DNA of 64,000 bases from Escherichia coli O127:H6 str. E2348/69 (GTDB lineage Bacteria > Pseudomonadota > Gammaproteobacteria > Enterobacterales > Enterobacteriaceae). The stretch lies in assembly GCF_000026545.1 (NCBI RefSeq), contig NC_011601.1; one strand, written 5' to 3'. The first letter of the stretch is position 1, and every line of letters starts with the position of its first letter. The notes below the pieces were generated by a model. It saw only the letters and a list, made by a program, of their open reading frames with translations, made no database searches and had not been told where the DNA came from. Made by a program: the position numbers and the translations under genes. Below are positions 38,282-40,094 of this stretch, piece after piece.

Positions 38282-38289
38282 TGACAGGT

Positions 38290-38400
<111 letters not shown>

Positions 38401-38498
38401 CAGTGTGCATTTTGGCAATAAATATGAAACCAACTGTCATGTCGGTTTTTTTAAAGGCCGAAGGTGGTAAACCTTCGGCCTTAGCTACGTTTCCTCAG

Positions 38499-38582
38499 TT
38501 ATTCAATAAATTGACGGATCAGTTCTAGCAGCGCGATTAGCGCCTTAAGAACGATGAGAACTTTATCGAGAAAAGTTTTCAT
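38499..38582 (-). CDS. Putative 27-aa amphipathic micro-protein (MKTFLDKVLIVLKALIALLELIRQFIE)
   Basis: Hand-translated; AAGGGAG Shine-Dalgarno 6 nt upstream of the ATG; followed downstream by a perfect 10-bp-stem hairpin (about 38456-38480). Confidence 0.35.
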   Translation of the reverse strand: MKTFLDKVLIVLKALIALLELIRQFIE

Positions 38583-38656
38583 CCGTTGCTCCCTTAAGGG
38601 AGAAAGACAATCACAGCTTACCCTTACGTTGCCTGTAACTATGATTTTCTTCATGT

Positions 38657-39958
38657 GCTAGATGAGGACTGCCTCTCTCCAAATTAGAGCACCAGAATCA
38701 GCACCACCTGTATCCTGACCAGGACTTAAAAGTACTTTTCCGCACTGCGGTAATCCCTTGAGGCAGTATCACTACTAGCGTCGGGATTGTATCGCCAACA
38801 TAGCTGTTGTGTAAGTTCACAGAGATATTGCAATTGCCTCCGGATAAGTAAGGGGAGATTGCACTATGCAAATGCAGCATCTGATGGTTGGCTATCCTAA
38901 GTACTACCAAACGGCCGATTATGCGTTGAGGCTTTCAGTGATGGCTGATATAGCAACAATGAGAATGAAGGCTCTGCACTTCTGGGATAAACACGGTATT
39001 TCTGCAGCTTCTGAAGCCTTTGGCGTGTCCTGCCGCACGCTTTACTGGTGGCGTCAGTTACTGAACAAGGAAGGACCTGAGGGGCTAATCCCGCACAGTA
39101 AGGCACCTCTGGTGCGACGAAAAAAACACTGGCATCCCGATGTGCTGAAAGAGATTCGACGCCTCAGGACAGAGCTGCCGAACCTCGGTAAAGAGCAGAT
39201 TTTTGTTCGCCTGAAGCCCTGGTGCGAACAGCGCTATCTGGCCTGTCCGAGTGTTTCCACCATCGGCAGAATGATCGCTGCCGCACATGATAAAATGCGG
39301 ATGATACCTGTGCGTCTGGGATCGCGGGGGAAGGCACTGCTTGTCAAAAAGCGGTCTGCCAAACCCCGCAGGCCAAAGCACTACCGCCCGGTAAAGACAG
39401 GTGAGCTCATTGGGATGGACGCCATTGAGCTCAGAATGGGCGAACTGCGTCGCTATGTCATCACCATGATCGACGAATGCAGCAATTACGCGCTGGCGCT
39501 GGCTGTGCCGTCACTCAACAGTGATATCGTCAATCACTTCTTCAGCCGCGCAGCCCGGTTGTTCCCGGTCGGTATCAGCCAGATAATCACAGATAACGGA
39601 AAAGAGTTCCTGGGAAACTTCGACAAAACGCTGCAGGAAGCCGCTATCAAACACCTCTGGACCTATCCCTACACGCCAAAAATGAACGCTATCTGTGAAC
39701 GTTTTAACCGGACGTTAAGAGAGCAGTTTATTGAATTTAATGAGATTTTACTCTTTGAAGATCTGGCGCTATTTAACCAGAAGCTGGCGGAATATCTGGT
39801 GCTGTATAACAGCAAAAGACCCCACAAGGCGCTCGCACTAATGACGCCCGTGGAATATATTTTAAAAGAGAATAAAAATTGCAATATGTGGTGGACCCAT
39901 ACAGCTGTTTGAATATGTAGGCATCCTGACTTATAATTCACTTGCTAGATGAGGACTG
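38657..39958 (+). mobile_element. Putative insertion sequence carrying one DDE transposase gene (IS481-like architecture); ends uncertain
   Basis: Transposase ORF bracketed by a 16-bp direct repeat tgctagatgaggactg at about 38657-38672 and 39943-39958; occupies the position where K-12 has the rhsD element. Confidence 0.45.
38866..39912 (+). CDS. DDE transposase, N-terminal HTH plus integrase-core (rve) domain, 348 aa
   Basis: ORF track; catalytic D (GMDAIE), D (ITDNGKEF) and E (ICERFNRT) with 35-residue D-to-E spacing. Confidence 0.7.
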   Translation: MQMQHLMVGYPKYYQTADYALRLSVMADIATMRMKALHFWDKHGISAASEAFGVSCRTLYWWRQLLNKEGPEGLIPHSKAPLVRRKKHWHPDVLKEIRRLRTELPNLGKEQIFVRLKPWCEQRYLACPSVSTIGRMIAAAHDKMRMIPVRLGSRGKALLVKKRSAKPRRPKHYRPVKTGELIGMDAIELRMGELRRYVITMIDECSNYALALAVPSLNSDIVNHFFSRAARLFPVGISQIITDNGKEFLGNFDKTLQEAAIKHLWTYPYTPKMNAICERFNRTLREQFIEFNEILLFEDLALFNQKLAEYLVLYNSKRPHKALALMTPVEYILKENKNCNMWWTHTAV

Positions 39959-40094
39959 TTTCATTTCTGCCCGGAACCACCAAGTCTTGGGCGGAAAAAA
40001 TAAAAAAACCGACTGTCATGTCGGTTTTTTTATATCTGTATTCTGGTGCAACCATTCTGTTCTCACGACAATCGCCGTTTCAGAATACCGCCCA

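What the first reader, a model, noticed from the sequence alone, without database searches (positions are those of the whole stretch)
38456..38600. Micro-ORF of 27 codons with a strong ribosome-binding site and downstream hairpin
A minus-strand ORF (MKTFLDKVLIVLKALIALLELIRQFIE) has an AAGGGAG Shine-Dalgarno at ideal spacing and is followed by a perfect 10-bp-stem hairpin (ggccgaaggt...accttcggcc), though the run after the hairpin is TTTAAAAAAA rather than a clean T-tract. The peptide is an amphipathic K/L/I-rich helix, as seen in small membrane-active toxins or regulatory peptides.
Basis: inference. Interest (0 to 1): 0.45.

Follow-up and report, generated by a model that had tools for sequence, protein, structure and literature searches.

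The report
Second DinQ-type toxin gene with antitoxin RNA
The 27-codon ORF is a real but already catalogued gene: a second, DinQ-like small membrane-toxin gene of E. coli with its own AgrB-type antitoxin RNA, here separated from that RNA by an insertion sequence.

Summary
A 27-codon ORF lies at 38499-38582 (-), with an AAGGGAG Shine-Dalgarno 6 nt upstream and a 12-bp hairpin at 38454-38482.

It is not an orphan. The window is E. coli E2348/69, where RefSeq already annotates this ORF as dinQ (WP_349808740.1). The peptide passes NCBIfam toxin_DinQ (40.9 bits, cutoff 30). The whole mRNA is homologous to K-12 dinQ.

An AgrB-family sRNA (Rfam 53.6 bits, threshold 40) lies at 39945-40033 (+). Its 5' end pairs with the toxin 5' UTR, and three target-box substitutions relative to K-12 are compensated in the sRNA. 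The SD sits in a conserved sequestering hairpin. The hairpin-plus-UUUAA 3' end is conserved from Escherichia to Photorhabdus. The reading frame is under purifying selection.

Such dinQ-like (dql) genes were described by Kristiansen et al. 2016.

Local particulars:
- The copy occupies the ybbP-mnmH slot in about 21% of complete E. coli genomes.
- It has no LexA box, so the "damage-inducible" name is doubtful for this copy.
- In the E2348/69 lineage a 1095-bp IS481-family element replaces its -35 region and moves the antitoxin gene 1.1 kb away.

Verdict: already known, low interest.

The parts
38499..38582 (-). DinQ-like (dql) type I toxin ORF, 27 codons plus stop: MKTFLDKVLIVLKALIALLELIRQFIE
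   Evidence: RefSeq dinQ WP_349808740.1. NCBIfam NF041472 40.9 bits, cutoff 30. Frame conserved across genera.
38589..38602 (-). SD-sequestering hairpin (elements 3:4): CUCCC-UUAA-GGGAG. The SD AAGGGAG is at 38595-38589.
   Evidence: An equivalent hairpin with different stem sequences occurs in 13 of 14 family loci.
38599..38612 (-). Element 3 (GAUUGUCUUUCUCC, +168..+181). It can pair either with element 2 or with the SD.
   Evidence: Predicted folds of 5'-truncated mRNA show a 14-bp 2:3 duplex.
38658..38680 (-). Element 2 plus the AgrB target box in the 5' UTR (GGAGAGAGGCAGUCCUCAUCUAG, +100..+122)
   Evidence: 23-bp contiguous duplex with the sRNA 5' end. dG -46.0 against -24.1+-3.1 for shuffles. 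Same position relative to the start codon as in six other loci. Direct repeat D2.
38757..38779 (-). Putative mRNA 5' end with a/a' (GCUAG) and element 1 (ACUGCCUC, 38767-38760), which lock the target box in the full-length transcript
   Evidence: MFE fold of the +1 transcript has the same architecture as the K-12 control. The TSS is inferred, not mapped.
38786..38791 (-). -10 hexamer TACAAT of the toxin promoter. The native -35 is displaced by the IS, and IS-end hexamers CTTACA/TACACA take its place.
   Evidence: 9/12 match in the window. No promoter passes the same threshold in the IS-free allele.
38454..38482 (-). 3' stem-loop / terminator of the toxin mRNA (12-bp stem) with UUUAA tail
   Evidence: I5. 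Homologous position and covarying stems in K-12, plasmid, Citrobacter, Pantoea, Serratia and Photorhabdus/Xenorhabdus loci.
38414..38453 (.). Second hairpin, a bidirectional terminator-like element. It is an 83% direct-repeat copy of the AgrB-like terminator region.
   Evidence: (D1).
38809..39903 (+). IS481-family insertion sequence (1095 bp; transposase ORF 38866-39912; 6-bp target duplication AACAGC at 38803-38808 and 39904-39909) between the toxin promoter and the antitoxin gene
   Evidence: Alignment to the IS-free allele, coordinates, RefSeq annotation.
39909..39937 (+). Promoter of the AgrB-like sRNA (TTGAAT-17-TATAAT, 10/12)
   Evidence: Identical in the IS-free allele.
39945..40033 (+). 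AgrB-family antitoxin sRNA, with a bidirectional terminator at 40000-40033 shared with convergent mnmH
   Evidence: Rfam RF02891 53.6 bits, gathering score 40. Terminator. Cognate pairing.

Best explanation
The ORF is the toxin gene of a second, chromosomal DinQ/AgrB-type (dinQ-like, 'dql') type I toxin-antitoxin module, lodged between ybbP and mnmH in E. coli E2348/69. The proposed mechanism is inferred by homology and structure prediction, not shown for this copy. (1) A roughly 330-nt mRNA is made from the TACAAT promoter. In the full-length form its 5' end pairs with the region +100..+123 (a/a' and 1:2), and the SD is closed in the hairpin CUCCC/GGGAG, so the mRNA is translationally inert. 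(2) 5' processing frees element 2, which can pair with element 3 and break the SD hairpin. (3) The divergently encoded AgrB-like sRNA pairs through its 5' 23 nt with +100..+122. This restores the closed state and, as for dinQ, probably triggers RNase III cleavage. (4) If translated, the 27-aa amphipathic helix inserts into the inner membrane and depolarises it. Unlike K-12 dinQ, this copy has no LexA operator. In this strain lineage an IS481-family element has replaced its -35 region and moved the antitoxin gene 1.1 kb away. Because the sRNA acts in trans, repression should persist.
For: Identity: 100% match to E2348/69, where RefSeq annotates dinQ. NCBIfam toxin_DinQ 40.9 bits against a cutoff of 30. 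Both the 27-aa and 51-aa forms are in public databases under that name. Whole-locus homology to K-12 dinQ-agr. Rfam AgrB 53.6 bits against a gathering score of 40. sRNA-mRNA duplex -46.0 kcal/mol against -24.1+-3.1 for shuffles and -34.6 for non-cognate K-12 AgrB; three target-box substitutions relative to K-12 are compensated in the sRNA. Cognate pairing is best in every row of a 7x7 matrix, at the same UTR position. Folding gives the same 1:2 / 3:4 / 2:3 architecture as the K-12 positive control. The SD hairpin and 3' hairpin are conserved with covarying stems. Purifying selection: 14 core codons have 10 DNA versions and 2 peptides, with variable sites 4/0/10 by codon position; the Escherichia sp. 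E1V33 ortholog differs by 3 synonymous changes only. Published basis: DinQ toxicity, localisation and AgrB control (PMC3567139); the four-element switch and the dql family (PMC5066626); DqlB/agrB validated with compensatory mutations (PMC12365149).
Against: No expression, TSS, processing or toxicity data exist for this copy. In the predicted 5'-truncated folds the SD is only partly freed (P unpaired rises from 0.01 to 0.17) and re-pairs with UGCUCU at +88..+93, so the activating step is not reproduced cleanly. The perfect Watson-Crick core with the sRNA is only 14-16 nt, against about 23 nt in K-12, and the rest relies on G-U pairs. The IS has removed the native -35. Rare population variants hit the hydrophobic core (L42Q, L43Q, E44K, R47L in the 51-aa numbering), and within-species variation does not distinguish the 27-aa part from the upstream extension.
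Confidence: 0.9

Rival explanations
1. The module is a silenced relic in this strain. The IS481 insertion into the promoter region has shut off, or deregulated and then led to the silencing of, the toxin gene, so the ORF is no longer expressed in E2348/69.
For: The IS sits 12 bp upstream of the -10 region's spacer and removes the native -35. IS inactivation of type I toxin loci is well known for hok genes in K-12 (mentioned in PMC7232551).
Against: ORF, UTR, -10 and terminator are 100% identical to IS-free alleles. The IS end supplies -35-like hexamers, so the consensus match rises from 8/12 to 9/12. The sRNA gene and its promoter are intact.
Confidence: 0.15
2. This copy is SOS-induced like K-12 dinQ, as its RefSeq name 'damage-inducible' implies.
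For: Name transferred by the NCBIfam equivalog model. A half-site-like sequence GCCTACATATTCAAACAGCT lies upstream in the IS-free allele.
Against: The best LexA-PWM score is 5.8, against 23.4 for the K-12 dinQ box and 13.7 for the weakest training box. The K-12 box aligns to unrelated sequence here. In this strain the IS separates that half-site from the promoter. The PWM was built from boxes recalled from memory, so scores are approximate.
Confidence: 0.07
3. The real product is the 51-aa in-frame extension (ATG at 38654), which many database entries carry.
For: The longer ORF is open and is deposited as a 51-member cluster.
Against: There is no SD before that ATG. Most relatives have no upstream in-frame ATG, and some have a stop 4 codons upstream. 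In K-12 the 27-aa SD-proximal form is the translated toxic product (PMC3567139). Kristiansen et al. note that Dql peptides are often mis-annotated with longer N-termini.
Confidence: 0.03
4. It is a chance ORF, or a leader peptide of an attenuator, unrelated to toxins.
For: Short ORFs are abundant, and a hairpin follows the ORF.
Against: Family HMM hit, cross-genus frame conservation with third-position variation, and a cognate sRNA. No downstream gene on that strand could be attenuated, because ybbP is convergent.
Confidence: 0.01

Closest known systems
DinQ/AgrB type I toxin-antitoxin system of E. coli K-12 (gor-arsR intergenic region; Weel-Sneve 2013, Kristiansen 2016)
   Same: 27-aa hydrophobic peptide with the core IVL-ALIALLELIR. 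Long 5' UTR with a/a', elements 1-4 and an SD hairpin. Divergent AgrB-family sRNA pairing about 75-106 nt upstream of the start codon. 12-bp 3' hairpin with UUUAA tail.
   Different: Different chromosomal slot (ybbP-mnmH, where K-12 has RhsD). One agr gene instead of agrA plus agrB. ATG instead of GTG start. N-terminal MKTFL extension and a shorter QFIE C-terminus. Lys where DinQ has Gly10. No LexA operator. Only about 66% mRNA identity. A shorter perfect antisense core.
dql (dinQ-like) genes, classes dqlA/dqlB (Kristiansen et al. 2016, PMC5066626); DqlB/agrB of pOXA-48 and other conjugative plasmids (PMC12365149)
   Same: Defined as dinQ homologues on enterobacterial chromosomes and plasmids that share the UTR elements, and some strains carry both dql and dinQ. 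That is exactly the situation here. The C-terminus LELIRQFIE nearly matches IncX3 DqlB LELIRQFID.
   Different: It does not reach the NCBIfam DqlB cutoff (24.5 against 35) and lacks DqlB's 7-residue insert. It is chromosomal, not a plasmid addiction module. I could not see Fig. 3B or the supplements of the 2016 paper, so I cannot confirm that this exact sequence was among its 14 dql genes.
K-type DinQ-like peptides of Photorhabdus/Xenorhabdus (MKAFIDTAIIVLKALIALLELIRAFLK), found here by genome scan
   Same: Same length, the same N-terminal MK-F-D frame, the same Lys in the helix, the same GGAGCAA(A)CGG SD context, and the best mRNA-level similarity (69-70%).
   Different: Those loci have no Rfam AgrB hit at the gathering score, only weak OrzO-P-like hits. 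They are often in tandem copies and lie next to tRNA or tmRNA genes.
TisB/IstR-1 and ZorO/OrzO type I systems
   Same: Small amphipathic inner-membrane toxin, long structured 5' UTR needing processing, and a divergent trans-acting sRNA.
   Different: No sequence-family match. The Rfam OrzO-P hit is only 24.1 bits against a gathering score of 60, and no LexA control as in tisB.

Membership tests
DinQ/AgrB (incl. dql) type I toxin-antitoxin family | Peptide matches the curated DinQ family model above its cutoff | tested here: met
   NF041472 toxin_DinQ 40.9 bits, cutoff 30, E=1.8e-10
DinQ/AgrB (incl. dql) type I toxin-antitoxin family | Short (about 27-31 aa) single-helix hydrophobic peptide with the signature IIVL...ALIA-LELIR, started from an SD-proximal codon | tested here: met
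   Alignments. SD AAGGGAG 6 nt upstream. Mean hydrophobicity 0.34 and hydrophobic moment 0.43.
DinQ/AgrB (incl. dql) type I toxin-antitoxin family | AgrB-family sRNA encoded divergently upstream, not overlapping the toxin gene | tested here: met
   Rfam RF02891 53.6 bits, gathering score 40, at 39945-40033 (+). It sits close upstream in the IS-free allele (sRNA at L002 2377-2465, toxin ORF at 2727-2810) and 1.36 kb from the ORF here because of the IS.
DinQ/AgrB (incl. dql) type I toxin-antitoxin family | The sRNA 5' end is complementary to the toxin 5' UTR upstream of the RBS, specifically for the cognate pair | tested here: met
   23-bp duplex, -46.0 against -24.1+-3.1 kcal/mol for shuffles. 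Compensatory substitutions relative to K-12. Cognate pair best in all rows of the matrix.
DinQ/AgrB (incl. dql) type I toxin-antitoxin family | Four UTR elements with mutually exclusive pairings 1:2, 3:4 (SD closed) and 2:3 (SD open) | tested here: inconclusive
   1:2, 3:4 and a 14-bp 2:3 duplex are all predicted, and the K-12 control reproduces the published fold. But the SD is only partly opened in truncated forms (P unpaired 0.01 -> 0.17).
DinQ/AgrB (incl. dql) type I toxin-antitoxin family | Stable 3' stem-loop / Rho-independent-type terminator just after the ORF | tested here: met
   12-bp stem at 38454-38482. Conserved frame GGAAACGUA..UAAGG[stem]CCUUUAA with covarying stems in 13 of 14 loci.
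DinQ/AgrB (incl. dql) type I toxin-antitoxin family | Toxicity on expression, inner-membrane localisation, depolarisation; activation by 5' processing; RNase III cleavage of the duplex | not testable with these tools
   Known for K-12 DinQ (PMC3567139, PMC5066626) and DqlB (PMC12365149). No data for this copy.
dinQ sensu stricto (SOS / 'damage-inducible' gene) | LexA operator overlapping the promoter | tested here: not met
   Best PWM score 5.8 against 23.4 for the K-12 dinQ box. The K-12 box is not conserved in the alignment.
DqlB (NCBIfam NF041473) | Score above the curated cutoff; 31-aa peptide with the RAVxAxAN insert | tested here: not met
   24.5 bits against a cutoff of 35. The insert is absent.
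ZorO/OrzO | OrzO-P sRNA family match | tested here: not met
   24.1 bits against a gathering score of 60, overlapping the AgrB-like terminator.

The most novel reading that the evidence does not exclude
This LexA-independent dql copy may respond to a trigger other than DNA damage. In the E2348/69 (O127:H6) lineage the IS481-family insertion splits the ancestral back-to-back toxin and antitoxin promoters and donates a better -35 to the toxin gene. That could shift the toxin:antitoxin ratio and give a lineage-specific phenotype, such as altered membrane energisation or persistence. A weaker side-reading is that the K-type subgroup shared with Photorhabdus/Xenorhabdus, whose loci show OrzO-like rather than AgrB-like sRNA signals, links the dinQ/agrB and zor/orz families.
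Probability: 0.15. Interest if true: 0.35.

Novelty: already known. Interest (0 to 1): 0.13.

Why it matters
It matters little as a discovery. The gene is annotated in RefSeq for this very genome, and its family and mechanism are published. The useful points are for curation. The 'damage-inducible' label is transferred to a copy that has no LexA box. Many database entries carry a non-conserved 51-aa extension. And E2348/69, a widely used EPEC reference strain, carries an IS between the toxin gene and its antitoxin RNA, which anyone studying type I toxins or persistence in that strain should know.

Tried and rejected
- tblastn of the 27-aa peptide against plasmids found nothing, probably because of the low-complexity filter on an L/I-rich query. 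The DNA-level 'distant' search worked instead.
- Pfam has no model for the family.
- RNAduplex with the full-length sRNA over-extends along both RNAs and was uninformative. Restricting it to the sRNA head gave interpretable results.
- My first SD-accessibility run indexed the wrong GGAG in K-12. It was redone.
- Within-species protein variants (51-member cluster) do not discriminate between the 27-aa part and the upstream extension: 7 against 6 variable positions. This is inconclusive, and cross-genus comparison was needed.
- A literature search for 'dqlA' and for the peptide string found no study of this copy.
- The supplements of Kristiansen 2016 are not held, so I could not check whether this exact locus is one of their 14 dql genes.
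- An alternative promoter suggested by the MAFFT alignment to K-12 (GATACA-17-GATACT) was rejected. It would exclude element 1 (ACUGCCUC) from the transcript and put the conserved AAGUCCUGGUCAG block at +32 instead of about +50 as in K-12.
- I did not locate the canonical dinQ locus of E2348/69 directly. Its presence is inferred from 2 places in that record and from 5422 of 5426 genomes carrying it.

Full report
**Observation.**
- The ORF MKTFLDKVLIVLKALIALLELIRQFIE runs from 38582 to 38499, stop included.
- AAGGGAG lies at 38595-38589, 6 nt before the ATG.
- A hairpin follows, and it is really 12 bp (38482-38454, pair I5). After it comes TTTAAAAAAA.
- A 27-codon ORF is not significant by itself: 103 ORFs of at least 20 aa overlap the surrounding 7 kb.

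**Identity.** The window is 100% identical to the chromosome of E. coli E2348/69 (O127:H6). RefSeq annotates exactly this ORF there as "dinQ: damage-inducible type I toxin DinQ" (WP_349808740.1), between ybbP and mnmH/selU.
- The peptide scores 40.9 bits on NCBIfam NF041472 toxin_DinQ (cutoff 30, E=1.8e-10). It is below cutoff on the DqlB model at 24.5 against 35. Pfam has no model.
- Both the 27-aa peptide and a 51-aa N-terminally extended version are already in public protein collections under that name, each on at least 1000 contigs.

**Homology covers the whole transcription unit, not only the ORF.** I aligned the IS-free allele of the locus (L002) with the K-12 gor-dinQ-agrA-agrB-arsR region (L003). 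Conserved blocks run through the 5' UTR, the antisense target box, the SD region, the ORF core and the 3' hairpin, and one agr-type sRNA gene lies upstream.
- Rfam places an AgrB-family RNA at 39945-40033 (+), at 53.6 bits against a gathering score of 40.
- That sRNA has a TTGAAT-17-TATAAT promoter and a 14-bp bidirectional terminator, which also serves convergent mnmH.

**Why the sRNA is so far from the ORF.** A 1095-bp IS481-family element occupies 38809-39903. It has TGTA...TACA ends, a 6-bp target duplication (AACAGC) and a 348-aa transposase. It lies between the toxin -10 hexamer (TACAAT, 38791-38786) and the sRNA promoter.
- Only the five best records in the E. coli collection carry this junction, all E2348/69 or O127:H6-like. 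From the sixth record onward the match starts at the IS boundary.
- In the IS-free allele the two divergent -35 regions are back to back.
- In the window the toxin -35 is replaced by IS-end hexamers (CTTACA or TACACA). These reach the 9/12 threshold of the promoter scan, whereas the native allele does not. This is a consensus match only.

**Test of the antitoxin relation.** The first 36 nt of the sRNA form a duplex with +72..+123 of the putative mRNA. This includes 23 contiguous pairs at +100..+122 (window 38680-38658).
- The energy is -46.0 kcal/mol, against -24.1 +- 3.1 for 500 shuffled heads and -34.6 for K-12 AgrB on the same mRNA.
- Conversely, K-12 dinQ prefers its own AgrB: -59.9 against -41.9.
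- Relative to K-12, the target box differs at three positions within GUYCUYAUCUAR, and the sRNA head carries the three complementary changes.
- In a matrix with four plasmid loci (IncX1 dinQ; IncI, IncFIB and IncX3 dqlB), every mRNA pairs best with its own sRNA. The target always lies about -106 to -75 from the start codon.

**Test of the mRNA switch.** Kristiansen et al. 2016 (PMC5066626) showed the following for K-12 dinQ.
- The full-length mRNA is locked by duplex 1:2 and by hairpin 3:4, which closes the SD.
- The +44 form opens the SD through duplex 2:3.
- AgrB re-closes it and directs RNase III cleavage.

ViennaRNA reproduces that architecture for K-12, which served as my positive control. 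It gives the same architecture for this copy:
- a/a' is GCUAG:CUAGC.
- Element 1 (ACUGCCUC, 38767-38760) pairs with GAGGCAGU.
- The SD hairpin is CUCCC-UUAA-GGGAG.
- In 5'-truncated forms there is a 14-bp 2:3 duplex.

One caveat applies. In the truncated folds the SD re-pairs with UGCUCU (+88..+93), and its unpaired probability rises only from 0.01 to 0.17. The activating step is therefore not cleanly predicted. The transcription start (about 38779) is inferred from the -10 hexamer and from the position of the conserved blocks. It is not mapped.

A codon-degenerate search for the motif in one genome per species returned 33 loci. Their peptides fall into two groups.
- The DinQ type, MIDKAIIVLGALIALLELIR(F/Y)LLQLL(N/S), occurs in Escherichia, Citrobacter, Pantoea and Serratia.
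- A "K type", MK.F.D..IIVLKALIALLELIR.F.K, occurs in Photorhabdus and Xenorhabdus. The window's peptide belongs to this group.

Further conservation evidence:
- Escherichia sp. E1V33 has both the canonical dinQ and this copy. Its copy sits in the same ybbP-mnmH slot, has no IS, and differs by three synonymous changes only.
- Over the 14 core codons there are 10 DNA versions and 2 peptides. Variable sites number 4/0/10 at codon positions 1/2/3, and the other two frames are closed in all 18 sequences.
- The upstream 24-codon extension is not conserved. Most relatives have no upstream in-frame ATG, and some have a stop only 4 codons upstream. This agrees with the experimental finding that the 27-aa DinQ V is the translated, toxic, inner-membrane form (PMC3567139).
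- The SD hairpin occurs in 13 of 14 loci with different stems (CUCCAU/AUGGAG, GCUCC/GGAGC, CUCCC/GGGAG and others).
- The 3' element has the frame GGAAACGUA..UAAGG[stem]CCUUUAA with covarying stems.

**Differences from K-12 dinQ.**
- No LexA operator. A PWM built from LexA boxes recalled from memory scores the K-12 dinQ box at 23.4, although that box was not in the training set. The best site in this locus scores 5.8, and the weakest training box scores 13.7. The RefSeq name "damage-inducible" is therefore probably inappropriate for this copy.
- One agr gene instead of two.
- A different slot. K-12 has the RhsD element between ybbP and selU and no trace of the module.
- Distribution. The module is present at 80% coverage or more in 1130 of 5426 complete E. 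coli genomes, whereas the canonical locus is in 5422. The E2348/69 record has two matching places, so it most likely carries both.
- Distant relatives annotated dqlB or dinQ are on 1205 plasmids, mostly conjugative.

**Comparison with the literature.** Kristiansen et al. 2016 already defined "dql" (dinQ-like; dqlA and dqlB) genes on enterobacterial chromosomes and plasmids.
- They noted that some strains carry dql together with dinQ, and that databases often give the peptides too long an N-terminus.
- T1TAdb incorporated those loci.
- DqlB/agrB of pOXA-48 was validated experimentally in 2025, including compensatory base-pair mutations.
- I found no paper on this particular chromosomal copy. 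I also could not open the 2016 figure or supplements to see whether it is one of their 14 sequences.

**Verdict.** The remaining open points are modest: LexA-independence, the effect of the IS, and the affinity with Photorhabdus/Xenorhabdus peptides.
- Confidence that this is a DinQ/AgrB-type toxin-antitoxin module: about 0.9.
- Confidence that it is functional in E2348/69 despite the IS: about 0.7 (inference).
- Interest: 0.13.

Noticed in passing
window 38866-39912 (+), IS end at 39903: The IS481-family transposase ORF has no stop codon inside the element. It reads through the IS end and the 6-bp target duplication and stops at a TGA in the flank (39910-39912), inside the -35 hexamer of the AgrB-like promoter.
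   Followed up: partly
window 38414-38453 vs 39993-40032: A 40-nt direct repeat (83%). A degenerate copy of the AgrB-like terminator, including its TGTCAT loop, lies immediately downstream of the toxin 3' hairpin. It could be a remnant of a former tandem module, since Photorhabdus loci L008 and L036 carry tandem copies 850-910 bp apart. It could also simply be ybbP's terminator. This is unexplained.
   Followed up: partly
window 38803-38815 and L002 2473-2510: In the IS-free allele the toxin and antitoxin -35 regions overlap back to back (TATTCA / TTGAAT). The IS insertion gives the toxin promoter a -35 with a better consensus match, taking the total from 8/12 to 9/12. This may be a hybrid promoter.
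   Followed up: partly
window 38319-38401: REP/BIME-type palindromic elements lie between ybbP and the module (Rfam ES036 40.3 bits, above its gathering score; naRNA4 below its gathering score). They made the first megablast query match nearly 190,000 places.
   Followed up: no
L036, L028, L033, L037, L008 (Photorhabdus/Xenorhabdus): K-type DinQ-like loci have no AgrB hit at the gathering score, but they repeatedly show sub-threshold OrzO-P (ZorO antitoxin) hits of 28-38 bits. A 2024 paper (PMC11264685) independently noted zor-like 5' UTR segments upstream of plasmid dinQ ORFs. This may point to a dinQ/agrB-zor/orz relationship.
   Followed up: partly
L015 (CAAFJI010000131.1) and L014: A 1-kb contig of a MAG labelled Lachnospiraceae, and one from an 'uncultured bacterium' bin, encode a peptide identical to E. 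coli DinQ with the same SD context. This is most likely mis-binned Escherichia DNA.
   Followed up: no
protein cluster /: Rare E. coli variants of this peptide carry drastic changes in the hydrophobic core or its charged residues (L42Q, L43Q, E44K, R47L, F28S in the 51-aa numbering). One has a DinQ-like C-terminus (…IRQLLNN). These may be sporadic toxin inactivation or recombination with canonical dinQ.
   Followed up: no
K-12 NC_000913.3 522831-530131 vs window 38282-40094: The ybbP-selU/mnmH interval is a variable slot. K-12 has the RhsD element plus ybbC-ylbG there, while E2348/69 and about 21% of E. coli genomes have the 0.7-kb dql/agrB module instead.
   Followed up: partly
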